A DNA stretch of 62,549 nt, the filler included. It is 4 parts of 4 records of this genome, joined end to end, with 100 filler letters (N's around TTAATTAATTAA, not from the genome) between each part and the next. Parts side by side here need not be neighbours in the genome. Positions count along the whole stretch, not along the records: positions 5,672 to 14,364 come from DRR378314_1273; 3 more parts are not named here. One strand, 5' to 3'. The translations under genes were made by a program, and so were the position numbers. How positions within the stretch are numbered: the stretch's first letter is position 1; the number at the start of each line of letters is the position of its first letter. This document shows positions 946 through 37,025 of the stretch, piece after piece. The notes under the pieces are model-generated. The model made no database searches, had not been told where the DNA came from, and saw only the letters and a list, made by a program, of their open reading frames with translations.

Positions 946-1716
946 GTGCCATTGCACTACAGCTACGCGGACGGTGTCGGTCGGATGACCTTCGACTTTC
1001 CCGAGAAGAAAAATGCGCTCGATCAGGCCGCACGCAAGGAGATGGAGCGCATTGTTACGCAAGTGCGGGATGACGAACGTGTCCGCGCACTGTTGATCAC
1101 CGGGACCGGAGGCGCATTCTGCGCGGGCGGCGATATCAATACCTTTGCTGGTTCTACCCCCACGGCCATGCGCGACCGCATGAAGCAACAGCACCGCGTT
1201 ACACAGATGCTCTATGATCTTGAAAAGCCGGTGATAGCAGCGGTTGCAGGGCCTGCGTTTGGTGTCGGGTTCAATATCGCGCTTCTGGCCGACGTGATCC
1301 TTGCCGCCCCGTCAGCCCGGTTCTGTCAGGCCTATGCGCGGGTGGCGATCGTGCCGGATGGCGGCGGGCTTTATCTGTTGTCGCGGGTGGTCGGGACGCA
1401 GCGCGCCAAGGCCATGTTCATGACGGCTCAGGTGATTGGTGCGCAAGAGGCGCAGAATATGGGGATCGTCCATGCGATCCATGAAGAAGCCGCGCTTGAG
1501 GCCGAAGCCTCTGCGCTTGCCACACGTCTGGCCGAAGGGCCCACCCGTGCCTTCGGGCTGGGCAAGGCGATGTTGAACCGAGGCATGGATTGCGATTTCG
1601 CCACCTATCTCGAGATCGAGGCCACAGCCGAAGCCTTTATCATGCAGACCGAAGATCACCGCGAGGCTGTCACGTCTTTCAAGGAAAAGCGCAAGCCGCG
1701 CTTTAGTGGAACATGA
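946..1716 (+). CDS. Enoyl-CoA hydratase/isomerase family, PaaG-like isomerase type
   Basis: GTG start with GGAGG RBS about 8 nt upstream. Motifs FCAGGDI, KPVIAAVAGPAFGVG, VPDGG, C-terminal DHREAVTSFKEKRKPRF. Both canonical crotonase Glu positions are substituted (N, Y); the Asp of PDGG is kept as in PaaG. Confidence 0.9.
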   Translation: MPLHYSYADGVGRMTFDFPEKKNALDQAARKEMERIVTQVRDDERVRALLITGTGGAFCAGGDINTFAGSTPTAMRDRMKQQHRVTQMLYDLEKPVIAAVAGPAFGVGFNIALLADVILAAPSARFCQAYARVAIVPDGGGLYLLSRVVGTQRAKAMFMTAQVIGAQEAQNMGIVHAIHEEAALEAEASALATRLAEGPTRAFGLGKAMLNRGMDCDFATYLEIEATAEAFIMQTEDHREAVTSFKEKRKPRFSGT

Positions 1717-2897
1717 CGGCTGGAGGCGGCCCTCTGTCAGGTCTCAGGGTGATCGACCTGGGGCAGGTCTACCTTGGGCCGTATTGTGGGCTGATGTTCG
1801 CGCTCATGGGGGCCGAGGTTATAAAGGTCGAACCGCCCGGCGGCGACAGTATCCGCGGCATTGCCGGCGGGACTGAAAACCCGGCAGCGATGATGCTGAA
1901 TTCCAGCAAGCAAAGCGTGACGCTCGATCTTCAGTCAGATGATGGGCGGTCCGCGCTGCTGGAACTGGCGGATACCGCCGACGTGCTGATCGAGAATTCC
2001 CGGCCGGGAACCATGGAAAAGCTGGGTCTGGGGTGGGACACACTGTCGGCCCGTAATCCGCGATTGGTTATGGGATCGGGCAAGGGTTATGCCGCCGATT
2101 CCGTTTTCCATGATGCACCTGCGATGGATTTTCCCATTCAGGCCCTTACCGGGCTGATGTCTGTGACCGGATTCGTTGACGGCCCGCCAGTGAAATGCGG
2201 GGCGGCGATCACCGATTTTCTGGGCGGCATCCATCTGTTCGGCGGTATCATGGCCGCACTGCATGCACGCGACAAGACCGGGTGCGGCGACTTTGTTCAA
2301 ATCGCGATGCAAGACGTGGCGCATCACGCGCTGGCGTCGAATATCTCGAGTCTTTTGCTGGCACCCGACGGGTTTGCGGACCGTGCCGGCAACAGTCAGG
2401 CCGTGCTCAAGGTTGCGCCTTATGACCTGTTTTCGGCGCGCGACGGGCAGGTGGCGATCATGTGCCTGAACGATCGCCATTGGGATCAACTGAGCCGTGC
2501 AATGGGCCGCCCCGATCTGGCGGAGGACCCGGAACTGGCCGAGGGGGCCGCGCGCTGTGCCCGGCGTGCCGAGGTCGATGGTTGGGTGCAAGAGTGGACC
2601 TCAAAGCATACCCGCGCCGAGATTTTCGCAGCGTTGAGCGACGCGCGTGTGCCGGGTGCCCCGGTGCGCACACTCGCAGAGGTCGTGTCGGACGACGACA
2701 TGCGGACCCGCGGCATGATCCATGACTTTCCGCACCCGGATTTGGGCACAGTCCCTGTACCCGGGCTGCCGATGAAATTTGCGCGTCACGAACGCGTGGC
2801 GCCCAAGCCCGCTCCAACAGCAGGTGCCGATACGGCGCGTGTTCTGAGCGCCCTGCGCCAGGCCAGGCTTTCCACATTATCAAAGGAATCTAACTGA
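1713..2897 (+). CDS. CaiB/BaiF family (class III) CoA-transferase
   Basis: GPLSGLRVIDL..GPY, GAEVIKVEPPGGD, ADVLIENSRPG, catalytic Asp in GAAITDFLGG. Overlaps the upstream stop (ATGA), indicating translational coupling. Confidence 0.93.
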   Translation: MTAGGGPLSGLRVIDLGQVYLGPYCGLMFALMGAEVIKVEPPGGDSIRGIAGGTENPAAMMLNSSKQSVTLDLQSDDGRSALLELADTADVLIENSRPGTMEKLGLGWDTLSARNPRLVMGSGKGYAADSVFHDAPAMDFPIQALTGLMSVTGFVDGPPVKCGAAITDFLGGIHLFGGIMAALHARDKTGCGDFVQIAMQDVAHHALASNISSLLLAPDGFADRAGNSQAVLKVAPYDLFSARDGQVAIMCLNDRHWDQLSRAMGRPDLAEDPELAEGAARCARRAEVDGWVQEWTSKHTRAEIFAALSDARVPGAPVRTLAEVVSDDDMRTRGMIHDFPHPDLGTVPVPGLPMKFARHERVAPKPAPTAGADTARVLSALRQARLSTLSKESN

Positions 2898-2898
2898 C

Positions 2899-4077
2899 AT
2901 GTTCAAGCTCGATCCGGAACTCGAAGATTTTCGCTCAGAGGCCCGCAAACTGGCCGAAGGGGAGTTCGCCTCAAAGGCTGCCTATTGGGACGAGAAAGAG
3001 GAATTCCCAGCCGCGAACCGCGACAAGTTGGCCGAGCTTGGCTATCTGGGCATGTTCATCCCGGAAGAATACGGCGGTTCCGGCGCGCCGGTGGTGCAGG
3101 GCACGGTCTTTCTGGAGGAAATGGCGCGGGTCTGCTTCAATACAGCGCTGGTTTCGCAGCTATACCTGAACGGTCCTTCGCGGGCGATCAGCGTTCTGGG
3201 CAGCGACGAACAGAAAAAGCGGTTCCTGCCGGATATGGCGGCGGGCAAGAAATTCATCGCCATCGCCATCAGCGAGCCTGAGGCCGGGTCGGCGGTTACC
3301 GACCTGCGTACCACAGCGACAAAGGATGGCGACGGCTGGGTGCTGAATGGCAACAAATGCTGGTCGACCGGCGCGCATGTAGCCGATTATGCGCTGGTCT
3401 TCTGCCGCTTCGGCAAGGCGAGCGGGGCAAAGGGGATCGGTGCCTTCATCATTGATCTGAAAAAAACCGGGGCGCGGATCGGCCACATATCGTCAAAGAT
3501 GGGCGGTCGGGGTCTGACCGAGGCTGAGATCATTCTTGAAAACTACAAGGCCGGTCCGGAGGACGTGTTGGTCGAGGGTGATCCGGAAAGCTCGCGTTCG
3601 TTCGCACTGCTGATGAGCAGTTTCGGACCTGAACGTGTGGGCAATGCGGCGATGTGCGTGGGGCTGGCGCAAGGTGCCTTTGAGGCGGCCAAGGAATATT
3701 CCGAGATCCGCCACCAATTTGGACGTCCCATCAACGAATTTCAGGGCCTGCAATGGAAGGTCGCCGATATGGCGACGCAGATCCATGCGGCGCGGCTGAT
3801 GGTATACCGCGCCGCCACCAACCCCGCGCCGAACGGCTTTCCAGATCCGATGGATGCGACCATGGCCAAGCTTTATGCCAACGAAATGGCGCAGCGGGTG
3901 ACGAACGAGGCGCTGCAGATTCATGGCCATAACGGCTATACGCGCGAATACCCGCTGGAACGGATGGTGCGTGACGCGCGTGGTTTCGCGCTTGGCGGTG
4001 GCACGGTTGAAATCTTGCGCAACACGATTGCCGCCATGGTCTATGGCCACAGCTTCAACCAGAGACGGGGAGGGTAG
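2899..4077 (+). CDS. Acyl-CoA dehydrogenase family protein (catalytic Glu at the IVD/LCAD position)
   Basis: IPEEYGGSG, ISEPEAGS, LNGNKCW, GPERVG, RHQFGRPI..FQGLQW, QIHG..GY..EYPLER..RDAR. Confidence 0.93.
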   Translation: MFKLDPELEDFRSEARKLAEGEFASKAAYWDEKEEFPAANRDKLAELGYLGMFIPEEYGGSGAPVVQGTVFLEEMARVCFNTALVSQLYLNGPSRAISVLGSDEQKKRFLPDMAAGKKFIAIAISEPEAGSAVTDLRTTATKDGDGWVLNGNKCWSTGAHVADYALVFCRFGKASGAKGIGAFIIDLKKTGARIGHISSKMGGRGLTEAEIILENYKAGPEDVLVEGDPESSRSFALLMSSFGPERVGNAAMCVGLAQGAFEAAKEYSEIRHQFGRPINEFQGLQWKVADMATQIHAARLMVYRAATNPAPNGFPDPMDATMAKLYANEMAQRVTNEALQIHGHNGYTREYPLERMVRDARGFALGGGTVEILRNTIAAMVYGHSFNQRRGG

Positions 4078-4082
4078 GGCGC

Positions 4083-5237
4083 ATGCACCCCTCCTTGTTG
4101 AACGAAGAACAGATTGCGCTGAAAGACGCGGCGCGCAAGCTGGCACTGGGTGAATTCCGCGACCGTGCGGCGCGCTGGGATCGCGAGGGCATCTATCCGG
4201 ATGAGAACCATCATCGCCTGAGCGAACTTGGCTATCTGGGCATGACCATCCCCGAGGATTTTGGCGGCGGCGGCGTTTCGTTGGTCGATTGCTATCTGGT
4301 GGTGGAGGAACTGGCGAAGGTGGATTTCAATACGGCGCTGATTGTCCACGATCAAAACGTGTCACCCCGGATCATCGCCACATGCGGCACCGACGAACTG
4401 AAGCGCGCTTTCCTGCCCCGCTTCGCGGCGGGCGAGATCGAATGCGCGATTTCCTGGACCGAACCAGAGGCAGGTTCGGATGCCACAGCGGTGAGGACCT
4501 CGTTGCGCGCCGAGGGCAATGACTTCGTGCTGAACGGCGGCAAAATCTTCACGACCTTCGGCGACCGGGCCGATTATCTTCTGGTTTATGCGCGATTCTG
4601 CGAGAGCAAGGGCGCGCGGGGCATCGGTACGGTTTTGGTGGAACGTGACAGCCCCGGCGTGACGGTGAACATCCTTGAACAGAAGATGGGCGCGCGCGGA
4701 TGCAACGAATGCGAAATCCACTTTGACGATGTTCGGGTGCCTGCGGGAAATATCGTGACAGAGGGTCTGGCCGAGAATTCCAGCGGCTTTGTCCGCCCGC
4801 TGGGTGTCTACAATGGGACCCGAGTGGGCATGGGAGTTCTGGCTCTTGGTGTGGCCGAAGGCGCGTTTGACCTTGCCTGCGACTACATGAAAACCCGCAA
4901 CCAGTTCGGCAAGACGTTGTCGGCCATGCAGGGCCTGCAATGGATGATGTCGGACATGAAGGTGCAGATCGAGGCCGCCCGGTCGCTGTGTTACTCCGCG
5001 CTGTCGCTGATTGACCGGGGTCAACCCGATCCGACGCTGTCTTCGATTGCCAAGGTTCAGGCAACCGAGATGGCGCAGCGCGTGACCCACGACGCCATGC
5101 AGATGTTCGGCGGCTATGGCTATTTCGGATCGCTTCCGCTGGAGCGGATGGTGCGGGATGTGCGGATGCTGACGATTACCGGCGGCACGACCCAGATACA
5201 CAAGAACGGGATCGCAAGGGCGCTGTTCGCTGACTGA
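4083..5237 (+). CDS. Acyl-CoA dehydrogenase family protein (no evident catalytic Glu)
   Basis: IPEDFGGGG, WTEPEAGSDA, LNGGKIF, RNQFGK, QMFGGYGY, RDVR..TITGGT. Starts 5 nt after the upstream stop. Confidence 0.92.
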   Translation: MHPSLLNEEQIALKDAARKLALGEFRDRAARWDREGIYPDENHHRLSELGYLGMTIPEDFGGGGVSLVDCYLVVEELAKVDFNTALIVHDQNVSPRIIATCGTDELKRAFLPRFAAGEIECAISWTEPEAGSDATAVRTSLRAEGNDFVLNGGKIFTTFGDRADYLLVYARFCESKGARGIGTVLVERDSPGVTVNILEQKMGARGCNECEIHFDDVRVPAGNIVTEGLAENSSGFVRPLGVYNGTRVGMGVLALGVAEGAFDLACDYMKTRNQFGKTLSAMQGLQWMMSDMKVQIEAARSLCYSALSLIDRGQPDPTLSSIAKVQATEMAQRVTHDAMQMFGGYGYFGSLPLERMVRDVRMLTITGGTTQIHKNGIARALFAD

Positions 5238-5264
5238 CAGATTTTCGCCTGGGGAGGGGCGGTC

Positions 5265-5571
5265 ATGGAAAATGAAATTACAGTTGAACGCAAGGATGGC
5301 CTGGCCGTCGTTTCGTTGAACCGACCGGACAAGCTGAATGCGCTGACCCTTGAAATGCGGGTCGAGATTATGGAGTGCTTTCGCCAGATGCACACTGATC
5401 CTGAGGTTCGGGCGGTGCTTCTGAGGGCCGAGGGCCGCGCCTTTTGTGCGGGCGCGGATATCTCTACCATGGGCAAAGACGATGTCTGGGGTGATCGTGC
5501 GCGTTTGCACCGGGCGCACCAGATGATCCTGTCCATCTACAACTGCGAAAAGCCCGTGGTGGCTGCAGTGC
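5265..5571 (+). CDS. Enoyl-CoA hydratase/isomerase family, truncated by contig end
   Basis: GGAGG RBS; SLNRPDKLNAL, DPEVRAVLL, AFCAGADI, EKPVVAAV, then the N-run. Confidence 0.9.
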
Positions 5572-5671
5572 NNNNNNNNNNNNNNNNNNNNNNNNNNNNN
5601 NNNNNNNNNNNNNNNTTAATTAATTAANNNNNNNNNNNNNNNNNNNNNNNNNNNNNNNNNNNNNNNNNNNN
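5572..5671. other. Artificial contig linker (N44-TTAATTAATTAA-N44, stops in six frames)
   Basis: The identical 100-nt spacer occurs three times and genes are truncated on both sides. Confidence 0.97.
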
Positions 5672-5952
5672 AAAGTCGCAACACGCACGACAAGCTGGCA
5701 CGCGCTACGGAGCTGCAATCGCTGTAATCTAACCCCAAGTCAACAGTAAAACAAATACACCACGTCGACAATCGGACCCAATCAAACTACGTTATAACAC
5801 CCCTGTGTGAAAGTCGGAAAAACATGAACATGGCAGCTACATTACCAGATTGGATACTCTTCCACAAGCAGCCCGCCCTACCAAGCAATCGCCACGCCGC
5901 AACGACCGCACCGCACTCGTCCAGCAAACTCCCTCTTTCACAAGCCGCATAC

Positions 5953-8912
5953 CTCCGCTGCACTAGGTCGCTTCAGCGGGTCAAACGCAAGCAGTTGCGA
6001 AAGAAGTGCCCGAGCTGCTGGTGACGCATTCGGGAAAAGCTGCGCGAGGGGAGTTCCGGGAACATTCTCAAACGCGATATACGCAGGAAGCGTTTCCATT
6101 CCCTGCAACAAGCACACGCGAGAAAACACCATGAGCAGAAACGGAGTTGAAAACAAAAAACGTCACGGACACTGCACATGAGTACGCATCATTCACAGCC
6201 CCTACGCATCGCAGCTTATTGCGTTCATCCAGGATGCTGCAATACGTGCATACGCAAAATAAAAATGCAAACATGAAGAAACACAGCGAAATCCACTATC
6301 GCTGGCCAACGTCGCGGCGTGGGAAACCGGGAAGCAGGGGGTAGTAAACACTCGCCCAGATCCATCTGGAGCGTCCGCCGGCACCGATACCAAGAAACTA
6401 AATGCAATACAGATAATGAAGAGCAGCGAACCATACGAAGCGTTGCCATCACATCGATAGAATGCGGTCAAGTGACGCGCATGCAACGAAATGCGCGCGC
6501 AGAGCGCCAAGTGGAAGCGGCCCAGTACATCCATAGGGTTGCAAATGGACAGATCCCCGCTTCTCTCTCGCACGGATCACAAACGAAATCGTAGAGAATA
6601 CAGCAAACGCAGGTACAGATTCATGCCGCATAATCAGGCTACAATTATGTGGAAATAATAATCCTACCATGCGGGCGTGCGGAAGCGAACCATGTACCGT
6701 ACCTCCCAATCCTCCGCGCTAGGCGTGCCAAGCGCCGCAAAGATTTTACCGAGCTGCTGCATGTCGCTCTCGCCAGCGAAATACGGCACGCGGAGCATCA
6801 TCTCCGCAAATATACATCCGACGCTCCACATGTCAACAGCTACACGAATAAAAATTATTAGGCCGTGATTGTACAGATTAAGAACCACAAAACGCACAAG
6901 CGAAGGCTTCCAGGCGCACTGCGCACAACAAAGAGAAAGCAAAAACGAAAAGAGAACATCCAAAGCATGACAAAAGCACAGAGCTTCATAACTAGCGCAC
7001 TCGCAGCCCCCCTCGGAATTCGCAAGCCAATGCCAAGCTGTGCGCAAACCTCCAGCGTAACACACCAATCTTCAATGTATCAATGCACAAGTTCTCTCGA
7101 AAAGGCAAAAGTTGCGCTACCCTGAGCACGTATTCGCATACCTGATCCGTAGGCGCGGGCGCCAAAGAGAAGCTCGGGTGCTCGGTACCACCTGCAAGAG
7201 CACAGGCCCATCAGACGCCGCGACATTAGCAGGAGAACTGGTGGGAATAAAAAACCAATCAAACGCGCCCTAGGCACGCTCACCATCTCTTGTGGCGCAC
7301 ATAGCATGCACCCCTATCTCATGGACTGACTCTTTCATGCAGAAGAACCCTCAATTACAAAAGACGCTAGCAGCAAAAACGGACCAGCGCTAGCGATAGC
7401 AAGCGCCGTCGCCCCTCCGACAGCGAAGCAGGAGCAGTGGCTGATCGCGCACCGACGCAAGCGGGCCCGCCGCGCGCACCTGGTCACAACCGAGTGGGTA
7501 TACTTTGGATTCGGACTGCCAAAAAATCGTGCCAGGCCAAAATCTGCAATCTTGAGCGTGCCATCGCGATGAATCAGAAGATTATCCGGTTTGAGATCCT
7601 GCACAAGCACGACCGCGTCGTGACGGAAATGCACACTTAGGCGACATTGTACGCGACGCTTCGAGCAGAAACATCAAAACGTGAGCGCAAGCGGACGACA
7701 CCCGACAGGAACAAATGCATTCCCCAAGGTCGTACGCAAATCAAGCAGCGGACTCGTACCCTGTGTATTACCCACTTGCTGTGTAAATGCGCGACGCCAG
7801 CCAGCAGCATGCGCATGTACGCTTTGACATCACGTTCGCGGAGTGGTATCGTGGCGTCCTTGATCACAGCGTCCAAATCAGTTTCGAGGTACTCAAATAC
7901 TAGATTCACGTTCGCTTTGTGCTTGTATACGTCGAGAAGCTGGACGAACAAGGTACCGCATGAGGAATCAGCAAAAATTAACAGAGGACACATCCATAAT
8001 TTTATGACGTAAAGCTGCGGTACTCGCACTACAGGTCTCGTGAAGCTTCGCAAGCCGCGCCGTCGCAACGCCCAGCCGCCAATTCGCAAACTAGTAGTTG
8101 TGCGCTGCCCCGCCCTTCCGAGTGTGCTACACGGCACGGGTGCCATAGCAAACCCACATACCTCGACAACATTCGGATGGCGAGTTTCTTGCAGCACACC
8201 TATCTCGCGCAAGGACGTAAAATCGATTCCGTCACTGTGCTCACGCTTGAGCATGCGTAGCTTCTTAATCGCCACAATGCGGCCCGTGTCGACTTCGCGC
8301 GCTTTGTGCACAACACCAAAAGTTCCCTCGCCAAGCACGCCAAGTTTCTCGTACCTACATAGGTAACAGTTCCGTCAAAGTAAAATAAGGTATGGCACTA
8401 CAATTTTCACTCGCTGTTATGAAGCATAGTACAAGTGGACGCGGTGCGCACGTCTGCAGTGTACGCGACCGGTATTACCCTCAAACGTCCTTCAGACGTG
8501 CAGCACCAGCCGTGCCGCGCGCTGGCGGGAAGCACGGCTGCTTCCAGGAACACCACCTACGAGCACGTGCACTGTCGCTGGCAGCCGCGCGAGCAAGAGA
8601 TTCTCAACGCTGGGGTCCATCGAAGCGCTGAGTAAGCCAGATAGTAGCAAATGTGGACCATAGAGGCGCGAGTGATGGACGACGCGCCCTTTGTGAGGAG
8701 GCGCAGAAGGACCAATCGTGGACTACGCAGCAGGCGTAGCCGCTAGCGCGCCAGCACCGCCAGCGAACCAGCTTCCACACGCACGCTCACCGTACGGCGT
8801 TTTCTTCAAGAGCAGAAAAAATTCAAAACGAAAGACAACCTGCAATCCAATGGTACGTATGATGCACAAGACATAGAACGCACCGGTAAGCATGGTCTTC
8901 CTCCAGCGCCAT
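5953..8912 (-). CDS. CDK7: Cyclin-dependent kinase 7 (CDK-activating kinase / TFIIH kinase), spliced, 3' end beyond contig edge
   Basis: Phase-consistent exons 8912-8884, 8354-8162, 7939-7760, 7598-7480, 7191-7142, 6839-6703, 6102-5953 give [23 protein letters not shown]...[11 protein letters not shown]...[10 protein letters not shown]...[36 protein letters not shown]. The C-helix and T-loop are CDK7/CDKD-type. Confidence 0.92.
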
Positions 8913-10001
8913 AGCTGCCACGCGTACGGAAGCGCGCCAACCGACCAAACTTCGAAACAAGGCTCCCCGATCATGGGTGGCACGCCCGAGCGCAAGAGCG
9001 CCGCATAGAGGCGCTGCAAGACCAACTCCCTAACCCCATCCCCAGCCACGTATTGCCCTCGCGGTGCTGGCACGAGCTCTGCTGCCATCGGAGTCCCGCC
9101 CCTCTTCCCCCGCCAATTTCGTTGTAACAATGTACAAGAAGTATTCCACGTATATGCAAATTATAAGGAATATCTCGTACATAAATCTTTTCCGCATGCA
9201 AAGGGAGAAAGCAGCCCATATCGGAGCATTGAGTTGCGGCTGTGCTGCTCCAGTTCGAGAGCACTTCTTGCGGGACGCGTTCCATCCAATTTTACCGGAG
9301 CGCCGCCCGTCACGGGTGGCAAATTCGTCAGCTATCTTCGGCAAGCGATCGTCACTTTTTATCACTTCTCCAGTAGAATGGTAAAATATCTTTATTGATT
9401 TGCGCGCGAATACTTTAAGCTTCCAGAGCGCGTTCGAATTCCGCTCGGCAGACGAAGCAGGAGGTAAAAATGCACGGCTCGTCAACCCCAGCGACCAACG
9501 GGCGCCGAGGGTGCCGAGTAAGCCCTCGGCAACGGCGTATCAAAAACGGGATTCGCGATAAGGCATCCTAGCGCACTTGTGAGAGAGAAAGGCACACCGC
9601 TGTTCTGGACTTGTTGAATTGACGATACTCTCCACACAGACGGAGTAGCCGGTACGCTGCAAATTTGCGAACCCTGTCCACATTGCGAGCTAGACCGGAA
9701 AACCTGCCTTCTGGCCAGAAACCGCAGGGCTTGCCGGGTGACCGTGCGCTCGTATGGGAAGCGTCGCCGCGTCCGCAGCGCTCCCCATATCGCCGCCACC
9801 CTACCCCTCCAACCAACGCCGGAGAGCGCCTGTCGCGCCCGCCGCGGCACGCTGCCAAGTCCCACACTCGGACTCGCCGCGCGCGGGAGCTGCTTCTTGG
9901 GTCGCGCGCACGAGCTTGTGCGGAGTACCTGCGCTGGATCTTTGGATACCGAAAATCACTGCAACGCTTTTGCCGGACCCGATCGTAACGAAGTTCAAGC
10001 A

Positions 10002-12112
10002 ATGAAAATTCGCGCAGGTGCTGTGTCTCCCGGAATGCTTGTGGCGATCCGCGGCCGACGGAACACGGTAAAAAGTGTGGAGAAGCACAAGAAACGGTAC
10101 ATTGTCAGCTGCGAGGACCTGCTCTCTGGTGAGGTCGTCGAGGCCGTCTTCAACGAAGACCAACGCGTCTCGTGGGCACTCCGCGAGCAAATGGTACGCA
10201 AAAGAGATATGTATTCTGTGTGCGCCAGTAATCACTCTTGTCAGTACATGCGTATATATTTGAAGTGATGGTGACTGGCCAACGCAGGCAGAAGGCTTTC
10301 CCAGCGTACAACGAGCAGGCGCGCCGCAACCCGCTGCCAACTCTTCGGCTCGCCGCTGTCCTTCGCGCGCACGGAGAGGACCGCGGCGCACTGTTCGTCG
10401 CCACACAGAAACGACGTACAGCTCCCTGTTACGCCCATGCTTCTTCCCCGCGCCACGTCGTACATTTCTCCTCTAAGATCATTATTTCTTCACGTTTCAT
10501 GACAAACCTGTTGCGATCTAAAAATGGGCTTTGTTTTTCTGCGAACGGAATCGTCCTCCTCATTTATTTTCTCGCGTTGCTTCGGCAATCACACGTGTTC
10601 GCTGGGCGCTTTTGTACGTTGGTGCGCACACAGCTGCTGAGTCGCCTCACCGACGAGGACGTGACGAAAGCGAGAAAACTTTTCCTTGCAATCGATCGAA
10701 GTGCAACGGGTATGTGTCGCTGCTATCGCAGCGAATAGGATACAAATAATATGGTTATTATAGAAAGGGACCGGACTACGTAGGGAGGCGTATGCGACGC
10801 GCACGAGAAGCACGGCGCGGAACCGTTTGCGCACCGGCCTCGCGCGCTGCGCCGAACCCAACGAAATCCATGTGGATTGCGAACACGTTGCGAAAAGCTA
10901 GGCAAGATGTGTACTGGCGTTGCTCTGTAGCAAGTGCTCGCTACCTTTACAATCAACGGAGCGTACCTTACGATAGTATTTAATATACCTGTTCTTACCA
11001 GGTGGAATCGGGGCGCTCGAAATATACCACATCTCCGAGCAGCTAATGGGTCGACAGATTTCGCGCGACGAGGCCAAAAGGTGCGGTCAGGCTGCTTGCG
11101 CTCCTCAACTGCTACTCGCCGGCTGTGCGTGAAACGTCAAGGTGACTCACTCGCGGTGGTTTCTTCCTTCGTGTGCGTTTGTCGCCATTCATTGCTGCAG
11201 ATGGGTAGAGCATTATGATAATGATAAGAACAACGAAGTTGGGTTCGCGGAGTTTCTCAGGTACGCACAGTATATGCGCAGGAGCTCACGTCGACCAGCG
11301 CTTGGCTCCTGCGTGCGCGCTGTGCAGCAAGTAACAAGGCGCTGCTTGCTATGTCTGTTCCTGCGCTTTCCTCCCAACGGGATGTGCCGCATGCCCTTCC
11401 CCCTCTGCAGTCTCCAGTGATCAGTTTTCCATACAGTGGCGGTTTTTTACGCTGTACGCTCTAGCACAGCAAGTAATGTCGCGTCTCTGGCACGGCCGTC
11501 AGTGCAAGGTTTGACGGATGTGTTTTTCACTGCTGCGCAAAACGTGGTCTGGACGTTCCTGTTCCGCCTCGGTGCCCAGCGTCTGGGCTCATCTCAAGTA
11601 TCGCCACACAAAGAACGACGAGATTCGTGAGTTTTTCGCACAGTTTGATTCACGAAAAACGGGGAAAATAACGTTCACAGAGCTGCAACTTGCGCTTTCG
11701 CATCTAGCGGGGACGGACGTCAGCGACAAGCAGGTATTTTTCAAAGCTCCTGAGCCTCTGTGCAGCGCAACCACGTGCGCGCTCGCTATGCAGACGGCGG
11801 GATCTGCGCGGGTGCCTTTAACCCTCCCTTTGATGAGAGCTCCCATCATAATACTGTGTGCGAATGACCTAAGTTTGCATCATTCTTGCACTGAGAGCAA
11901 GTGTCTGGCTGTTGCGCACAACGTCACCGAACGCTTCGCGTCATGACATTATCTGCCCCCTCTGTTTTCCTTCTTGTTGCAAACGCTGATAACACTTGCA
12001 CGGGTGGCGGAAAAATAAGGTGAGTGAAATCTTTGCGGCAGCGGATACAAACCAGGACGGGTGTGTTGACCTCGACGAGTTCCGCGATACGCTGATGGAA
12101 GTCGAACTGTAG
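10002..12112 (+). CDS. EF-P/eIF5A-like N-terminal domain fused to a four-EF-hand calmodulin/centrin-like domain (217 aa, 6 exons)
   Basis: Exons 10002-10193, 10634-10709, 11002-11080, 11201-11260, 11580-11733, 12020-12112, all GT-AG and phase-consistent. EF loops DRSATGGIGALE, DNDKNNEVGFAE, DSRKTGKITFTE, DTNQDGCVDLDE. The EF-hand part is secure; the N-domain assignment is pattern-based. Confidence 0.8.
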
Positions 12113-12243
12113 GCACAAAGCACAGGAAGTGGCAATGCACTCTCCCTGCGCACGATCGATGCCGTGCTCCTGCTTGTGCTTGCACGCCCCGGCAGGCAGC
12201 GCCCTCTGTGCGCCGCTGCGACAGATATTAAATACAAACCAGT

Positions 12244-14020
12244 TTACGGCACCAGGTGGGATGCCTACGGAGTACAAAGCAAGTGGAAGCGCAAGTCGCA
12301 CAAGGTACCATGTCCAGCTCCTCGGCGAGCTGGAGCTTTCGAATGGACGCCTGAACGCGGCAATGCCCAGCTCTCACGAATACCTTGCGAGCGGCCAAGG
12401 CGTCGCCACGAGCGTCTGTCTCGAAACGCGACGCTTTGCGACGAAGTTTCTTTTTTCTCACAATTTATTTTATGAAACAAAGGGAAAATCACTGAGGAAA
12501 AAAACCACGAGTGGACACCGACGAGAAGTATTTATTTCCACGCACTCATCGAAAGCTCTGCAATCTCCGACCGGCGTAGCACCTGGCGGCGGATCTACAG
12601 TCTATCGTGAGCATAGCCCGCGCGACAGAAGCGTGTCAGGCTTTGCTGACGAGAATAGAGCACGACAATGTCAACAGTCGAGTGATGCTTCCAGATATAG
12701 TACTATTTCCCGCACATGCGTAGACCTAACTTAAGTCCTTTTGGCGGTGGCGCAAACGGTGCGCGCGCTTGCACGATCAGCCATGGCACAAAGGCGGAGG
12801 AGACCCGCCTGAGGAAAAGGATACCTCGCACTCCTCGCCATCGCTCATCTCCCATGCCCCTTCATCGAGCCGCATGAGAGCTCGTGCACACAGTTTACAG
12901 ATACGCACTGGGCCATTATATATATGCATACGTACTACCGCCTGCGCAAAAATTCGCCGCACAAGCACCGCAGAGTCGCCCCGTCATACTTCGCCTTACG
13001 TTTTACAACCGGCAAAGTGAAAGCCCACTCGAACCCAGATAAAGTGGCACGCGCGCTCTGCCCAGCTTCCACACCGTAGAACGAGCAAGCATCGTCCAAA
13101 TACAGGCATTAAGGGGATTTCATCGTTATATCGTATGTACTTAGGCAGAGGAATCTTCAGTAAAGCGCGCTCAGCAGCAGGCGGCTCCCGCAACAAACCC
13201 ACAAGAGCGAGCAGCAAAAGCGGCAGTGCCGCCAGCCCGCAATATCGACATGTCCAACCGGCTTTGTAGCAAGGGTTCTTTCTGCCTATGCGCACCTCAA
13301 ATTTCGTGCATGTCGCACAGTAAATTCCACCGCAATTGCGACAGTGATGCCTTCGATGTGTAAATGAAAATGTCTGTTCGAAAGTGAAATGGATTACAAG
13401 GGGAGAGACAAGTCAGTCCTCACCATGCGCTCACAGCACGCCCCGATTGCGGCGTACCCCCCGAGGCGACTCGATTGCATGATGGGAGCCTTCGCGGGTA
13501 CCATCTACGACAGCAACGAACGCGCCAGGCATGATTCGCACTATCTGTAACACATTTTGCTACGTTGCAGAAAAAAGATCACATGATACTTGAAGAGCAG
13601 AAGAGAGCATCCTGCACGCTGCAGCAGGAGCTGTGCCCAGCGTCTTCCCCGCCCCCTGCCTCGCCCCTGCTCTCGACACGCCAAGGTGCACCGCTTCTTG
13701 GTCTGGCCGTAGGGAAAACGACAACACCGACAACCCCGCAACGTACATCACTGCACAGTTGACAGCGCGTGACGCTGTTGTCTTCCTGCCACTTTCGTGT
13801 CGCTATACATACGCCGGTAGCGTCAACACTGCATACAGCCCACCCCGGGAGAAGGCTACTCTGGCTGCTGCTTGGCCTGGGAGTGTGCCGCGCCGCGTGG
13901 GCTGGTACTGCACCGTCCTCACCGGAAACTACTACTGTTGCGACGCCGCTCCCTTGCAACGCCACAAGCAGAGTGCCCTCGCGGGCGCCAATAGCTTCCG
14001 CAGGTCGGACCAGTGGAATC
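12244..14020 (-). CDS. FYVE zinc-finger protein C-terminal part (ALFY/WDFY3-like), 5' part beyond contig edge
   Basis: Exons 13802-13747, 13373-13296, 12941-12825 splice in phase to KWQEDNSVTRCQLCSD-TFSFTHRRHHCRNCGGIYCATCTKFE-AVVRMHIYNGPVRICKLC, giving all FYVE motifs (WxxD, RRHHCR, RxC). Further phase-compatible exons end at TAA 12244 (tentative). Confidence 0.82.
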
Positions 14021-14364
14021 TACAATAATATCAATTCAAGCGCCACGCATGAATGGTAAGCTGACACACAGCAAACCAAAACAAAACGCGTACACAAGCG
14101 GATTATTCCTGCTGACCATTCTGAGCACCTCGTCCGCACATGCAAAAGCGTGAGATTGCTCTCGTGAGCTTGTCGTAGGGCGAAATGCTGCCGCATCTTG
14201 GTCGCACTCACCCATTTGCCGGGGTATGGGGCAATGCAGGGAGAGGAGGCTATACAAAGGACCTTTTTTTGATGCACATTTTTTATATCGGCCTCTTCCG
14301 AAAGGTCCGGAGTCGGTCAATATTTCCGTCTCGCAGCCTTGGCGGCAGACGTCAATGAAATGTG

Positions 14365-14464
14365 NNNNNNNNNNNNNNNNNNNNNNNNNNNNNNNNNNNN
14401 NNNNNNNNTTAATTAATTAANNNNNNNNNNNNNNNNNNNNNNNNNNNNNNNNNNNNNNNNNNNN
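14365..14464. other. Artificial contig linker
   Basis: N44-TTAATTAATTAA-N44. Confidence 0.97.
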
Positions 14465-14754: not shown

Positions 14755-17700
14755 TGCGCTCGCTGGATATCCCGGACGCGGTGATATGCCTGAGCTGGTT
14801 TATGCAGCATTTCATGCTCGGATTTAAGCGCGACTTTTCCATGATGGACAGCGAAAGCGGGAGCATCTCCGAGTTGTTCCAGCTCGAGCGCAATGCGCGG
14901 CCTTGTCTCTGCGATACTGAGGAAAATGAGGTACAGTATCTCCTGGGCTCGAACACGCGCATATTTGTACATGTCATCGCTTGCAGCTTTGTCCCATCTT
15001 CGTACATGCGTTCGCAAAAGGAGACGAGGTACTCGTTTTGTGGTGTTTGTTGACTGTCGAGGACTCTCGCACTGCTCAGTTGGGCGTACGAAAGACAGAG
15101 CTCTTCCGCGTTTCTCTGCCGTTTATCGCCATGTTCTACCAACGTTGATTTTTTTCCACAGGAGTACGACATAGACCGAGATTTTCTCGTGCACATTGTG
15201 CCGTTCCAGTTCTTTTCCGCCATTTTGTGCGCTCGTTCTCCTGCACGGTGCTCCGTGTCGTGTTAGAGCTGCATGTGCCGTTGTTTACTAGTCGCTGGCT
15301 GGCAGGCAAATGCACGTTTTTTTTTCCTTTTTTCCGATCTCACGCGTTCTCGTTTCTTCACGTTCGCGTGCGTGTGTATTGTTGTCTGTATGTTTCTTGC
15401 TTTGTCGTCATCCCTGTTCCGGTCTGTCGGCCGCAGGTCGCGCTCTGCACCGATACGACGGCAAACTTTGTGAATTACAGCGCTGAGCCAACGCGCTCCT
15501 CTATTGCATTTGACGGCACAGTGTCACCGCTCTTTGTGAGCTACTCGCGTCCGTATCTCCTTGTTTGCATGGCAAAGGTGCGCTTGGGATGGGGCGAACG
15601 CGGAGGAGCTACGTGGACCTGTGCGCTGTTGTTGCCCTGCAGCGCGACATCACTGTCGTTCTCGTGCGGAAAGTGCCTCGGTTTTCCGCGTCGGACTCGC
15701 CCAAGCCTCTTACCGTCGCATACATTTCGTTCTCTGATCACCGCGAACCCTGATGTACAGACAATCGACGTCTTTAATATATTCGACCAGAAGAAACTGC
15801 AGACGATCAATTTCAACAACGCGGCGGCGACGGCGAGCGACGGCAGCCGCGTACGTTTGCGTTCGTTGTGCTTCTGTGAGCGCTTCAACTCTATACATCT
15901 TCGCTTACGTATCGGCAACAAGTTGGTATTCATAGCGTGCGTTGTGCAGTGTGTAGAAAGGGTTTGTGTCCGTTTGTGGGCCCATGTAGCGCGTACTCTG
16001 AGTGGCAGCGGGGCGAAGTGGCCGTTCCCTCTCTCGGAGCACGATGATCCACCGCCTTGTCTCCCTGGTCCTCCTCTTCCTCCCGCAGGACGTGATTAAT
16101 CGATCCTCCTTGGCTCTCTGTGCGCAAGTGGCTGGTTTCGTACCGCCCTTGCGGTCGTGTATTGCTGCGCACGCGTGTACGCAGAGTGCCGCTGCTAACC
16201 CACGTCGAATTTTTGCCGCGGAATCCTGCAGGTATTTGTTGCGAATGTGGGTCGCGTGTTCTGCCTGGAGCCGATCCCGTTCCAAGAGCAAGTGCAAGAG
16301 CTTGTTCAGTCGAAACGCGTTGAAGAGGCTTTGCAGCTCTTCAATCTTTCCACTACCATCAAAGGGAAGCCGCGCGAAGAGGCGGAGCGGTCTATTTATC
16401 GGTACGGAAGGCGGCGAGCGCGAGCGTAGAGCACGACACTGTCGCACGTGCGTCGCTTCCACATCACACAGATTCGCCGCGATCCCACCGCGCAGTCCGC
16501 GATCACTACGCAGCGCGCAGAGATCGCGTAGGGAGGAAGACGATCGCGAATAGGGTGTATTGGGTCCCTTGGAGGGCGCGCGGCGGTTCCGCAATGACCC
16601 GCTTCTGGCACCGAGTTTCCCCCTCCGCTCGCTGCGAGTGCGCTCTCGTGGTCCGCTGCGAGCTCGGTGTAGGATGTAGCTACATGTACGCGTGTGGATG
16701 GACCAAAACAGTACAGCAGTGCTGTCAATGCGCTCTGTCATGTTTTCGCAGCTCTTCTTTGTTTCTCTGCGTTTATTCGAGTGATGTGCACCACGCTTTG
16801 TCGTAGGCGAAACAGCGCACTCGTTGCATCGCGGCGAAGAGTCGAGGTTTCACACTTGTCGCGACGATGCAGCGTTGTACTCCGGAGTTGATTCGACGCG
16901 AATCGCCGTCGCGTAGCGCAGCAGTTGCCGTTTCCACGCAATACGAGTGCCGATGCGCGTTACACGCGTCCTGTACATTAATTTCCGCATTGTCTACGTT
17001 TATCTGCGTGCAGGCACGCGGGATTCGTGATGTTTCACGATCTGCAGTTTAAGCAGGCGAAAGAGTACTTTCTGAAAGCGGAGCTGAGCGCGAACGAGGT
17101 ATTGCAGTACGTACCGGACGTTCTTCCGAAAGGATCGCGCATAAAAGCTGCTGAGAAAACGCTGAAAGACATTGTGGAGGAAGGAGTTTCTTCGCGGTCG
17201 TGGATCGACGATCCTACGGCGTCGAAGGAAAAGGTATGTTTGGCCGTAATGATACTCATACTTTTCTTTTCCTGTTCTTTGTTGGTGTATTCATGTGCTC
17301 CGATCCCGCTGTGCGCTGCGTTTGGGCGAGCGAGAGGGACGACAGGAGGACTCGTTGTGTTTGTCGCCGCTCAATGAAACGCGATGTGGTGCGCGTTTCT
17401 CTCTCTTTCGCGCGCGCGTCGTAACGCTTCGACTCATGGATTGGACATGGCCGCAACATTGACGCGCTCCCTTTCCGTTCCGTGGATCCGCACCGCGTGC
17501 AGTTTATGATGGAGGGTCGATTCTACATTGCTGCGTTTCTGAAGACGATGCGCCAGCGACTCGTGTCGCAGAATCGCGAGGGCGAGCTCGAGGTTGCCGA
17601 TACATCGCTCTGCCTTCTCATTGCGCAGATGCACGCGTCCAAGCTGCGCGAAAAGGAGGCGAAGAAACCGCAGGAGCTCACAAACATTGAGCTGTTTCTC

Positions 17701-19270
17701 GACCGAAAGAACTCTGTCTCTGTCCGCGACGTCGCCCCGGCGCTCGAGCGCCACGGCCTGTTCAACGCGCTGGCGCTCTTGTACAAGTCGCGCGGCGACA
17801 CGGTCAAGGCGCTCGAGATGTGGAAGCGACTCGGCGAAGGCAAGGTGCAGGAGCCGCATCGCGACGGCATTGCGCCGACAATTGAGCTTCTGCAGTCTAT
17901 GGACGACTCGGACTTGCTGTGGTCGTTTTCTCCGTGGGTGCTCGCGCGAGACGCGCAGGCGGCGCTCGCTATTTTCACCTCGACGGTGCGCGAGCGGCCG
18001 CTGAGTCCTGACAAGGTCCTCGATTTCCTCAGCGCTCGCTCGCCGCTGCTCTTCCAGCAGTATCTCGAGCACGTTGTGTACGAGCTCGACCACCCGGACG
18101 AGAAGTACCACACCCGCCTCGCTCTCTCGTACATCAGCAATATTCTCGCGGCGCTCCCGCAGGGTGTCGCGCCGAGCTCGCCCGAGGCGCGCATGGCGTT
18201 CCTGTCCGCGCCGGAGGGAAGCGAAATCCAGACGAAGCGCGCGCTTCTCGCGCGATTTCTCGAGGAGCGGAACTTTTACGATTCGTTCACGCTCCTCACG
18301 CAAATCCGCGCGACGGCTCTGTACGAGGAAGCCGTCATTCTGTACCGCAAGGCGCGCAAGCACGAGGAGGCGCTGCGCACGATTGTGCGCAAAATCGGCG
18401 ATCTCGGGCTGGCGGAGACGTACTGCCTTGCCCAGGCGGACGCCGGCGTGACAACCGAGACGCTCCTTCTCACGTTTTTGCGAACGATGCTGGACACCGA
18501 GGGCGGCACCGTTGCGCCACTGCACGACGCGGTGATCGTGCTGCTCGAGTCGCACGCGGACAAGTTTGACCCGGAGATGGTGCTCGAGACGCTGCCGCCG
18601 ACCACTTCGGTGGCGTCAACCGCTGCGTTCCTGCAAAAGGTACGAGTTGCGCGGTGCGGCACGTCGGAAGGCGCGCGCGCGATGGGATGCGCGACGATCT
18701 GCGTCCGCTGCGCGGCACTGTCGGTTCGCGGCGACGCGCGACGCGGCGTTTCTCCCGCTTGGCCGCGCCGACGGCATGCAGCTGCGCGCTTGTGCGCGGG
18801 TTTGGACGCCGTGGTCCCCGTGCGTGCTGCGCATAAGCGCTGCTAGTGTCACGGGGTAGAATAGGGCGGCGGTGTCCTCGTGCGCCGTGCGCGGCTCCGC
18901 CTGATGAGTTCGGCGCTGCTGTGCTGCGGCTTTCCCTCCTCTCGCCCCTGCGCCTCGTGCGATGCTGCAGGTGATTCGCTCGCGCGTCACGAAGCGCCGT
19001 GGAGCCGAAATCGAGAAGAACCTCGCAAAGATTGAGAGCCTCACCGTGCGCATGGACGCGCTTCGCATTCAAACTCGCAGTGCGGTTGTCACTAAGGACA
19101 CGGTGTGCGCTGTCTGCGGGAACAAGATCGACAACGTGTTTGTATGCTATCCGAACTATGTCATGGTGCATTTCAAGTGCCACAAGCAGCGACATATTTG
19201 CCCCGTAACCGGTCGCAATTTCGAGCAGGAGAACCCCACGCTCCGCGGAGCTCCATCGACGAAAGCATAG
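14755..19270 (+). CDS. Vps3/TGFBRAP1-like (Vam6/Vps39 family) CORVET/HOPS subunit, 5' truncated
   Basis: CNH-like exons (LDIPDAVICLSW..GFKRDFSMMD; YSRPYLLV; IDVFNIFDQKKLQTI), QEQVQELVQSKRVEEAL, HAGFVMFHDLQFKQAKEYF (TGFBRAP1-like), large exon 17503-18639 (YHTRLALSY, LYEEAVILY..HEEAL), last exon 18971-19270 with CAVCGNKI..YPN..VHFKC..CPVTGRNF. Confidence 0.88.
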
Positions 19271-36925: not shown

Positions 36926-37025
36926 NNNNNNNNNNNNNNNNNNNNNNNNNNNNNNNNNNNNNNNNNNNNTTAATTAATTAANNNNNNNNNNNNNNNNNNN
37001 NNNNNNNNNNNNNNNNNNNNNNNNN
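36926..37025. other. Artificial contig linker
   Basis: N44-TTAATTAATTAA-N44. Confidence 0.97.

What the first reader, a model, noticed from the sequence alone, without database searches (positions are those of the whole stretch)
10002..12112. EF-P/eIF5A-like domain without its modified loop, fused to a calmodulin/centrin-like Ca2+ sensor
Seen: exon 1 encodes MKIRAGAVSPGMLVAIRGRRNTVKSVEKHKKRYIVSCEDLLSGEVVEAVFNEDQRVSWA and splices in phase 0 to four EF-hands. Established: EF-P/aIF5A domain I reads roughly I.A.DL..G..I.I.G....V...E..KPGKG.A...V....L.TG...E..F.....V. Exon 1 follows this spacing on both sides, but the KPGKG / KTGKHG.AK loop carrying the beta-lysyl or hypusine residue is about 5-6 residues shorter (EKHKKR), and the OB domains are replaced by EF-hands. 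I know of no described protein with this architecture; fungal HEX-1 is a precedent for repurposing the eIF5A fold. Inference: a Ca2+-gated RNA/ribosome-binding or self-assembling module, potentially linking calcium signalling to translation.
Basis: partly seen in the sequence, partly recalled or inferred. Interest (0 to 1): 0.8.

Follow-up and report, generated by a model that had tools for sequence, protein, structure and literature searches.

The report
Calcium sensor with orphan N-terminal domain
A spliced, expressed gene of an unidentified eukaryote encodes a centrin/calmodulin-like calcium-binding protein with an extra 64-residue basic N-terminal piece that faintly resembles the first domain of translation factor EF-P, but this cannot be shown to be a true relationship.

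Summary
A six-exon gene (10002-12112, + strand, 217 aa, all introns GT..AG) is real. One 852-nt contig of a public run joins all six exons exactly as predicted, including the 10193/10634 junction. Exon 1 is the first ATG of that contig, is in frame, and scores as coding (top 0.26% of 13,444 windows). Exons 2-6 give four EF-hand loops spaced 37 residues apart, and their closest solved relatives are centrins.

The EF-P reading is only partly supported. No library search places exon 1 in EF-P/IF5A: Pfam, the PDB and 1.84 billion representative proteins all gave nothing. A targeted profile comparison gives 79.5-80.5% HH probability over 59-60 columns, with a 5-residue gap at the KPGKG loop. That score beats 0 of 400 shuffles, 0 of 340 natural windows and four other small-barrel families. 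However, the phage protein KilR matches residues 3-34 equally well (81%). The only confident fold (pLDDT 84) used EF-P sequences as its alignment and is therefore circular. No orthologues were found.

Best reading: a centrin-type Ca2+ sensor with a lineage-specific, basic, probably all-beta N-domain. EF-P descent is possible (about 0.25). A link to translation is unsupported.

The parts
9943..10001 (+). 5' untranslated leader (minimum extent); holds no ATG
   Evidence: The spliced contig starts at 9943. The sequence was read. The frame is open upstream to 9618 without an in-frame ATG.
10002..10193 (+). Exon 1 coding part: 64-aa basic N-terminal domain (pI 9.7), faintly EF-P-domain-I-like, with its N half KilR-like
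   Evidence: coding signal; profile comparisons; charge.
10194..10633 (+). Intron 1 (440 nt, GT..AG, phase 0)
   Evidence: the joint skips 440.
10634..10709 (+). Exon 2: entering helix and first half of EF-hand loop 1
10710..11001 (+). Intron 2 (292 nt, GT..AG)
11002..11080 (+). Exon 3: second half of EF-hand loop 1 and its exiting helix
11081..11200 (+). Intron 3 (120 nt, GT..AG)
11201..11260 (+). Exon 4: EF-hand loop 2 (fits the strict EF-loop pattern)
11261..11579 (+). Intron 4 (319 nt, GT..AG)
11580..11733 (+). Exon 5: EF-hand 3; best solved relatives are centrin-2 and centrin-1
   Evidence: EF-hand_6 28.2 bits, EF-hand_1 26.8 bits, both over cut-off; centrin-2, E 2.2e-8.
11734..12019 (+). 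Intron 5 (286 nt, GT..AG); a low-depth unspliced contig lies on 11738-11921
   Evidence: record 2, depth 3.1, against 41.7 for the spliced contig.
12020..12112 (+). Exon 6 coding part: EF-hand 4 and stop codon
   Evidence: EF-hand_1 30.6 bits, over cut-off.
12113..12251 (+). 3' untranslated region (minimum extent)
   Evidence: The spliced contig ends at 12251.

Best explanation
The locus is an expressed six-exon gene of a poorly sampled eukaryote. It encodes a 217-aa, two-part protein. Residues from about 66 to 217 form an acidic (pI 4.9) four-EF-hand module of the calmodulin/centrin type and act as the Ca2+ sensor. Loops 2 and 4 are canonical, loop 1 is near-canonical, and loop 3 has Arg at the third loop position. 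Residues 1-64 correspond to one exon and form a basic (pI 9.7) lineage-restricted extension. It is translated from the first AUG and most likely folds into a small all-beta, SH3-like unit. I infer that this unit docks the sensor to a partner (protein or nucleic acid) or mediates self-association, as the shorter basic N-terminal extensions of centrins do. It is not a working EF-P/IF5A module, because the hairpin loop carrying the modified lysine is shortened by 5 residues and the OB domains are absent.

Shown: the gene structure, the splicing, the EF-hand identity, the coding signature of exon 1, and a borderline but above-chance profile similarity to EF-P domain I and to KilR. Inferred: translation from M1, the beta fold, and the docking or assembly role.
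For: Splicing: one 852-nt contig joins all six exons with five GT..AG skips.

Start codon: the 59-nt leader has no ATG, and there is no in-frame ATG upstream to 9618.

Coding signal of exon 1: in-frame codon score is +0.285 per codon against +0.238 for the EF part, with both off-frames negative. GC by codon position is 0.64/0.39/0.67, against a flat 0.66/0.59/0.62 upstream. Exon 1 ranks in the top 0.26% of 13,444 windows and the top 1.0% of 3,307 stop-free windows.

EF-hands: Pfam hits are over cut-off for exons 5 and 6. Centrin-2 is the best PDB match of exon 5, E 2.2e-8. Four loops are spaced 37 residues apart.

N-domain against EF-P: hhalign against 6 and against 91 EF-P N-domains gives 80.5% and 79.5% over 59-60 columns. 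Controls: 0 of 400 shuffles reach the score, with maximum 16.5 against 29.2. 0 of 3961 natural windows reach 13.1 bits, and 0 of 340 reach the hhalign score. The exon 1 ORF is the best of 1071 six-frame pieces of the window. Control barrels score 0.2-3.1%. The two alignable near-invariant glycines, G11 and G43, are kept. Both halves map collinearly onto EF-P.

N-domain against KilR: its N half matches KilR at 81-86%. KilR's published AlphaFold3 model is described as largely beta sheet (PMC12482147, passages read).
Against: No orthologue or paralogue was found, so conservation of exon 1 cannot be tested.

AF2 on exon 1 alone gives pLDDT 42.8 and low-confidence helices. The confident beta model (pLDDT 84.1) and its Foldseek hits to eIF5A and EF-P rest on an EF-P alignment that I supplied, so they are circular.

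A crude Chou-Fasman pass, with parameters recalled, gives mixed helix and strand.

The first 26 residues carry +6 charge and no acidic residue. That also fits an organelle-targeting peptide or a disordered centrin-like tail.

Run X1 is only guessed to be RNA. No protein-level evidence exists.
Confidence: 0.6

Rival explanations
1. The N-domain is a true evolutionary derivative of EF-P/IF5A domain I. The exon would have been copied from the organism's own eIF5A or organellar EF-P gene, lost the modified-lysine loop, and been recruited to a Ca2+ sensor. It might retain RNA or ribosome affinity.
For: hhalign aligns 59-60 of 64 residues end to end at 79.5-80.5%, with a single 5-residue gap exactly at KPGKG. 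The score lies above all shuffles and natural windows tested. It is specific against four other barrel families. Both halves hit collinear EF-P positions on their own: N half 17.3 and C half 21.5, against shuffle maxima 16.5 and 16.4. The domain equals one phase-0 exon. EF-P/IF5A is universal, so a donor gene is always at hand (established knowledge). HEX-1 shows that the eIF5A fold can be repurposed (recalled), and HEX-1 appears among the Foldseek hits.
Against: Pfam EFP_N gave no hit at E<=10. My own HMM gives only 13.1 bits. phmmer against 1.84e9 proteins and against the PDB returned no EF-P or IF5A. Spread over about 20,000 families, the HH E-value of 1.5e-5 corresponds to about 0.3 chance hits (my arithmetic). 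KilR matches the N half better than EF-P does, 28.3 against 17.3. So at least part of the signal is a generic beta-hairpin motif. The language-model search gave no EF-P cluster. The functional loop and the OB domains are missing. No RNA-binding evidence of any kind exists.
Confidence: 0.25
2. Residues 1 to about 30 are not a folded domain. They are either an organelle-targeting presequence or a disordered basic tail like the N-terminal extension of centrins, and the EF-P and KilR resemblances are chance.
For: Net charge is +6 with no acidic residue in the first 26 residues, and the first acidic residue is at position 27. AF2 alone gives pLDDT 42.8. The EF part is nearest to centrins, which usually carry basic N-terminal extensions (abstract of PMC8622359 seen in the listing, plus recalled knowledge). 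Two unrelated families both score about 80%, which suggests the scores are poorly calibrated for this short sequence.
Against: The similarity to EF-P continues through residues 37-60, which are acidic and not tail-like. Alternating hydrophobic stretches separated by Gly or charged turns run through the whole 60 residues. Helical hydrophobic moments over residues 1-23 are low, 0.07-0.22, which is unlike an amphipathic presequence.
Confidence: 0.15
3. Exon 1 is leader sequence. Translation would start at Met64, the last codon of exon 1, and give a plain 154-aa four-EF-hand protein.
For: Met64 lies 21 residues before the first EF loop, close to where calmodulin starts relative to its first loop (plus recalled calmodulin numbering). 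GC-rich DNA here gives long open frames, and the same frame is open from 9618.
Against: The ATG at 10002 is the first in the transcript contig, has a purine at -3, and has no upstream ATG in the 59-nt leader. Met64 has C at -3. Exon 1 has an in-frame codon score and three-base GC periodicity like the EF exons, while the in-frame stretch upstream does not.
Confidence: 0.07

Closest known systems
Centrin / calmodulin family (four EF-hand Ca2+ sensors)
   Same: Four EF-hand loops are spaced 37 residues apart in about 150 acidic residues. Pfam EF-hand hits are over cut-off. Exon 5's best solved matches are centrin-2 and centrin-1 at the position of their third EF-hand. Like centrins, it has a basic N-terminal extension.
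   Different: The extension is 64 residues and probably folded, where centrins have roughly 20-25 disordered residues (recalled). No protein in the 5.8-billion collection shares enough words with exon 5 to score, so it is not an orthologue of any sampled centrin or calmodulin. Loop 3 has Arg at its third position.
EF-P / a/eIF5A domain I (Pfam EFP_N, PF08207; SH3-like barrel)
   Same: Length, both termini and hydrophobic/glycine spacing align over 59-60 columns at about 80% HH probability. G11 and G43 fall on near-invariant glycines.
   Different: It is below the family threshold in every library search. The KPGKG hairpin tip that carries the beta-lysyl, rhamnosyl or hypusine residue is 5 residues shorter. 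The OB domains are replaced by EF-hands. It lies in a nuclear, intron-containing gene.
KilR / Kil of Rac-like phages (NCBIfam NF008465; FtsZ and MreB inhibitor, about 70 aa)
   Same: It is the only NCBIfam hit of exon 1, at E 0.043, and the top named cluster in the language-model search at 0.86. hhalign gives 81.4% over residues 3-34, and the HMM gives 17.7 bits with 0 of 2000 shuffles and 0 of 3961 natural windows reaching it. It is similar in size, with a short second hairpin and a published predicted beta-sheet core (PMC12482147, passages).
   Different: Only the N half matches; the C half scores 0.2%. The score of 13.8 bits is far below the 92-bit cut-off. The family is seen in enterobacterial phages (the 55 records) and in 1 of 401 Pseudomonadota genomes searched. 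Common descent with a eukaryotic exon is therefore unlikely.
HEX-1 (Woronin body protein, an eIF5A-derived self-assembling protein of fungi)
   Same: It is a precedent for an IF5A-fold protein that lost its translation role (recalled). It appears among the Foldseek hits of the alignment-guided model, 1khi at rank 41 (circular).
   Different: HEX-1 keeps both IF5A domains and has no EF-hands.

Membership tests
EF-P / IF5A domain I (Pfam EFP_N PF08207) | Scores over the curated family threshold (23 bits) | tested here: not met
   Pfam scan of exon 1 gave 0 families at E<=10. My own 91-sequence EF-P N HMM without filters gave 13.1 bits. NCBIfam gave no EF-P model.
EF-P / IF5A domain I (Pfam EFP_N PF08207) | Hairpin loop (KPGKG or equivalent) carrying the modified Lys/Arg | tested here: not met
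   There is a 5-residue gap at this loop in both hhalign alignments. Columns G34, K35, G36 and A38 of alignment A1 are gaps in exon 1.
EF-P / IF5A domain I (Pfam EFP_N PF08207) | SH3-like beta-barrel fold | tested here: inconclusive
   AF2 alone gives pLDDT 42.8. AF2 with EF-P rows gives pLDDT 84.1, six strands, and TM 0.86 to eIF5A 3er0_B, but this is circular. Chou-Fasman is mixed.
EF-P / IF5A domain I (Pfam EFP_N PF08207) | Followed by one or two OB-fold domains | tested here: not met
   The rest of the protein is four EF-hands.
EF-P / IF5A domain I (Pfam EFP_N PF08207) | Profile-level similarity over the whole domain, above controls | tested here: met
   79.5-80.5% HH probability over 59-60 columns. 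0 of 400 shuffles reach it, and 0 of 340 natural windows by hhalign. Controls score 0.2-3.1%. This is borderline and not unique, given KilR.
EF-hand, calmodulin/centrin type | EF-hand profile hits over the curated cut-off | tested here: met
   Exon 5: EF-hand_6 28.2 (cut-off 25) and EF-hand_1 26.8 (cut-off 25.4). Exon 6: EF-hand_1 30.6 and EF-hand_6 26.6. Loops 1 and 2 could not be scanned, because they are split by introns or shorter than 20 aa.
EF-hand, calmodulin/centrin type | Four 12-residue loops in two pairs, about 36-37 residues apart | tested here: met
   Loops lie at residues 85, 122, 159 and 196. Two fit the strict pattern and two a relaxed one; the pattern was recalled.
EF-hand, calmodulin/centrin type | Ca2+ binding and Ca2+-dependent target binding | not testable with these tools
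   This needs ITC, a gel-shift assay or pull-downs.
KilR (NCBIfam NF008465) | Scores over the curated cut-off (92 bits) along the whole 73-position model | tested here: not met
   13.8 bits, residues 6-37 only. hhalign local alignment covers 32 columns. The C half scores 0.2%, and 35 of 100 shuffles reach it.

The most novel reading that the evidence does not exclude
Exon 1 is a true EF-P/IF5A domain I that has shed its modified-lysine loop and its OB domains and has been grafted by exon shuffling onto a centrin-like Ca2+ sensor. As far as I recall, this would be the second case after fungal HEX-1 of the translation-factor fold being repurposed. It would be the first fusion to a Ca2+ sensor, and it could tether Ca2+ signalling to an RNA or ribosomal partner.
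Probability: 0.25. Interest if true: 0.65.

Novelty: new variant of a known kind. Interest (0 to 1): 0.38.

Why it matters
EF-hand sensors gain their specificity from what is attached to them. A folded, basic, orphan domain fused directly to a centrin-like module would be a new way of placing a Ca2+ sensor in the cell.

If the domain proves to descend from EF-P/IF5A, it would show that the most conserved part of a universal translation factor can survive as a free-standing module without its catalytic loop. It would also give a handle on how such barrels bind partners.

As it stands, the case is one gene in one unsampled lineage with twilight-zone similarity. It is worth a structure prediction once orthologues exist, but it does not establish a link between calcium and translation.

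Tried and rejected
- Word-based homologue searches found nothing. Exon 1 against longer proteins gave 141 candidates, none at E<=1. Exon 5 against longer proteins gave 5 candidates, none at E<=0.001.
- phmmer of exon 1 against 1.84e9 representatives gave 2 hits, both about 2,100-aa tandem-repeat proteins matched in several stretches. I rejected them as repeat artefacts.
- PDB phmmer gave 3 hits at E>=1, none EF-P or IF5A.
- Metagenome and viral contig scans with exon 1 gave 595 and 20 pattern matches, none confirmed.
- The protein atlas gave a best score of 0.89 for unnamed clusters and 0.86 for KilR among named ones.
- AF2 of exon 1 without an alignment is uninformative, pLDDT 42.8.
- No whole genome is held for the window, so paralogues and the organism's own eIF5A and EF-P could not be sought. 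tblastn of exon 1 against the window found only itself.
- The look-up of sequencing runs listed no RNA holder on record. The one holder, X1, is 'RNA?' by guess.
Only bacterial EF-P profiles were compared.
- The full spliced protein could not be folded or searched as one piece, because tools take contiguous window references only. No EF-hand model or domain-domain contact was tested.
- Literature searches found no EF-P-N plus EF-hand fusion. One search returned 96 papers, of which I saw 15 listings. One search returned 63 papers, of which I saw 15 listings. Supplements are closed and were not seen.
- Apicomplexan origin was my first guess from the sequence style. I dropped it because the SUV3 helicase core of the window is at most 53% identical to anything in the collection, and its nearest named hits are plants and algae.
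Full report
**1. What is in the sequence**

Exon 1 (10002-10193) translates to the quoted 64 residues (my first try was off by one base). Joining the following exons gives 654 nt, 217 codons plus a stop, and no internal stop:
- 10002-10193
- 10634-10709
- 11002-11080
- 11201-11260
- 11580-11733
- 12020-12112

All five introns are GT..AG, and intron 1 lies in phase 0.

The window itself is a concatenation of contigs. Stretches of 44 N flanking a TTAATTAATTAA spacer sit at 5572-5671, 14365-14464 and 36926-37025. The gene lies on the 8.7-kb piece 5672-14364.

**2. Is exon 1 joined to the EF-hand exons?**

Yes. One public run holds the locus (its kind is only guessed to be RNA). Laid on 9000-13200, an 852-nt contig (depth 41.7) covers 9943-12251 in six pieces. 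It skips exactly the five predicted introns, each with GT..AG ends after the stated cut shift. It differs from the window at 1 letter of 852. A form with five introns removed is most simply a cDNA of a spliced mRNA. A second, 184-nt contig at depth 3.1 lies inside intron 5, which suggests a little unspliced RNA or DNA in the run.

**3. Is exon 1 translated?**

This is inferred, on fairly good grounds.
- The 59-nt leader held by the contig has no ATG.
- The ATG at 10002 has G at -3.
- The frame has no ATG upstream back to 9618.

Codon evidence came from a table trained on three long conserved ORFs of the other eukaryotic contigs.
- Exon 1 scores +0.285 per codon in frame, and -0.24 and -0.17 out of frame.
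- The EF exons score +0.238.
- The in-frame stretch upstream scores about 0.
- GC by codon position is 0.64/0.39/0.67 in exon 1, 0.60/0.34/0.59 in the EF exons, and a flat 0.66/0.59/0.62 upstream.

Against a background taken from all eukaryotic contigs, exon 1 ranks in the top 0.26% of 13,444 windows of 192 nt. It ranks in the top 1.0% of the 3,307 stop-free windows, a set that includes real exons of other genes. Met64, the last codon of exon 1, remains a possible alternative start. It has C at -3.

**4. The EF-hand part**

- Exons 5 and 6 pass Pfam's EF-hand cut-offs.
- Exon 5's best solved relatives are centrin-2 and centrin-1, E 2.2e-8 to 7.5e-8, at the position of their third EF-hand. Calmodulins follow at about 1e-3.
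- Exon 6 matches EF-hands of SCaMC-1 and troponin C.
- In the joined model, four 12-residue loops start at residues 85, 122, 159 and 196, which is a 37-residue spacing. Two fit the strict EF-loop pattern (recalled). Loop 3 has Arg at its third position.
- This part is acidic (pI 4.9, net -10). Exon 1 is basic (pI 9.7), with +6 and no acidic residue in its first 26 residues.

'Calmodulin/centrin-like' is therefore correct.

**5. Is exon 1 an EF-P/IF5A domain? Library searches say no**

- Pfam gave 0 families at E<=10.
- NCBIfam gave no EF-P model.
- phmmer against the PDB, which is rich in EF-P and eIF5A, gave 3 hits at E>=1, none of them EF-P or IF5A.
- phmmer against 1.84 billion representatives gave only two giant tandem-repeat proteins matched in several stretches, which I discard.
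- Word-based searches and metagenome and viral scans gave nothing.
- The language-model atlas gave no EF-P cluster.

**6. Targeted comparison says 'perhaps'**

I fetched EF-P N-domains from bacterial genomes, first 6 and then 91 from three phyla. Two loci from unpublished genomes were left out.

hhalign of exon 1 against these profiles gives:
- 80.5% probability against the 6-sequence profile and 79.5% against the 91-sequence profile.
- E 1.3-1.5e-5 for a one-profile search.
- Query residues 1-59/60 aligned to template 2-65/66.
- One 5-residue gap, exactly at the KPGKG loop.

The controls were:
- 0 of 400 shuffles reach the score (maximum 16.5 against 29.2), and the reversed sequence scores 8.2.
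- With HMMER filters off, exon 1 scores 12.6 bits against the 6-sequence HMM and 13.1 bits against the 91-sequence HMM. The best of 2000 shuffles scores 8.5 and 6.2 respectively.
- 0 of 3961 natural 64-aa windows from bacterial ORFs reach 13.1 bits (top 9.2).
- 0 of 340 of those windows (the 40 best by HMM plus 300 random) reach the hhalign score. The best was 25.1 over only 20 columns.
- The exon 1 ORF is first of the window's 1071 six-frame pieces (8.9 bits, next 2.7).
- Four other small-barrel families built the same way score far lower: KOW 3.1%, L2_C 0.2%, L19 0.6%, CSD 0.4%.
- The two alignable near-invariant glycines are kept as G11 and G43. The third near-invariant column lies in the deleted loop.

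**7. Why this is not enough**

(a) The hypothesis was chosen after looking at the sequence. An E of 1.5e-5 spread over about 20,000 families amounts to about 0.3 expected chance hits (my arithmetic).

(b) An unbiased NCBIfam scan returns a different family. KilR, the roughly 70-aa FtsZ inhibitor of Rac-like phages, comes up at E 0.043 and 13.8 bits. It is also the atlas's top named cluster.

I built a 9-sequence KilR profile. Against it:
- Exon 1 scores 81.4% by hhalign, but over residues 3-34 only.
- It scores 17.7 bits by HMM.
- 0 of 2000 shuffles (top 7.2) and 0 of 3961 natural windows (top 9.5) reach that score.

Forced global alignments tie, at 25.4 for KilR against 25.9 for EF-P.

Split in halves (100 shuffles each):

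| Half | EF-P profile | KilR profile |
|---|---|---|
| N half (1-31) | 17.3, barely above the shuffle maximum of 16.5 | 28.3 |
| C half (32-64) | 21.5, shuffle maximum 16.4 | 8.4; 35 of 100 shuffles reach it |

Both halves sit at collinear EF-P positions. Only EF-P accounts for the whole length, but the strongest local signal is a V-x-P-G-M-hydrophobic-V first hairpin shared with an unrelated, narrowly distributed phage family.

The EF-P and KilR profiles align to each other in the same register but at only 5%. KilR's published AlphaFold3 model is described as mainly beta sheet (PMC12482147, passages read).

The common denominator is therefore 'a small all-beta domain'.

(c) Fold prediction gives no independent support.
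- AF2 on exon 1 alone gives pLDDT 42.8.
- With the 91 EF-P rows as its alignment, AF2 gives pLDDT 84.1 and six strands.
- Foldseek then returns eIF5A (3er0_B, TM 0.86), EF-P, and HEX-1 at rank 41.
- This only shows that the sequence can be threaded on the template I supplied.

**8. No relatives**

The organism is poorly sampled. The SUV3 helicase core encoded at 28360-29532 (-) is at most 53% identical to anything in the 5.8-billion-protein collection. The hits with named organisms are nearly all land plants and green algae, at 48-51%. The absence of orthologues of this gene is therefore uninformative, and conservation of exon 1 cannot be tested.

**9. Mechanism I commit to**

The protein is a centrin/calmodulin-type Ca2+ sensor. 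Its N-terminal extension is a translated, basic, probably all-beta unit of about 60 residues.

By analogy with centrin extensions, and from its charge complementarity with the acidic EF module, I infer that it docks the sensor to a partner or drives self-association. That is inference only.

It cannot work like EF-P, because the loop that reaches the peptidyl-transferase centre and the OB domains are gone.

| Claim | Confidence |
|---|---|
| Gene and splicing | 0.95 |
| Translation from M1 | 0.8 |
| Small beta domain | 0.6 |
| Descent from EF-P/IF5A | 0.25 |
| Any role in translation | about 0.05 |

**10. Novelty**

I found no described or database protein with this architecture (listings only for the papers, and supplements not seen). 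It is best filed as a new variant of a known kind: an EF-hand sensor with an orphan N-domain.

Noticed in passing
window 1-5571, and spacers at 5572-5671, 14365-14464, 36926-37025: The window is several contigs joined by N44-TTAATTAATTAA-N44 spacers. The first piece is bacterial: enoyl-CoA hydratase, CoA-transferase and two acyl-CoA dehydrogenases. Its acyl-CoA dehydrogenase is 100% identical in protein to a Sulfitobacter MAG contig and 93-97% identical to many Rhodobacteraceae. It is a contaminant or associated bacterium beside the eukaryotic contigs.
   Followed up: partly
window 9742-10005 (+): An out-of-frame open frame has an ATG at 9754 and ends in TGA overlapping the main start codon (ATGA at 10002-10005). 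It would act as an upstream ORF only if transcripts start upstream of 9754. The spliced contig starts at 9943.
   Followed up: no
window 11738-11921: A 184-nt contig of run X1 at depth 3.1 lies inside intron 5, beside the spliced contig at depth 41.7. It may be retained intron or pre-mRNA, or a trace of DNA in the run.
   Followed up: no
window 7640-8374 (-) and 12999-13412 (-): The neighbours on the same contig lie on the opposite strand. One is a protein-kinase exon (Pkinase, E 1.1e-24, with a CDK-like N-terminal lobe) and the other a FYVE zinc finger (E 4.1e-8). Nothing links them functionally to the EF-hand gene.
   Followed up: partly
window 28081-30357 (-), 17425-18843 (+), 52365-54560 (-): Three other ORFs stood out. 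A long single-exon SUV3-type mitochondrial RNA helicase is at most 53% identical to any database protein. A Vps39/Vam6-like ORF was also found. A 732-aa open frame has no Pfam family at E<=0.001. Together they point to a deeply unsampled eukaryote.
   Followed up: partly
exon 1 residues 3-14 (window about 10008-10043), compared with KilR of Rac-like phages (L285-L293): Exon 1 carries the run GAVSPGMLV. The same run occurs with one change (Q for S) in several Kil proteins of enterobacterial phages. It sits at the start of the first predicted beta-hairpin in both, and in the same register as the G-containing first hairpin of EF-P.
   Followed up: yes
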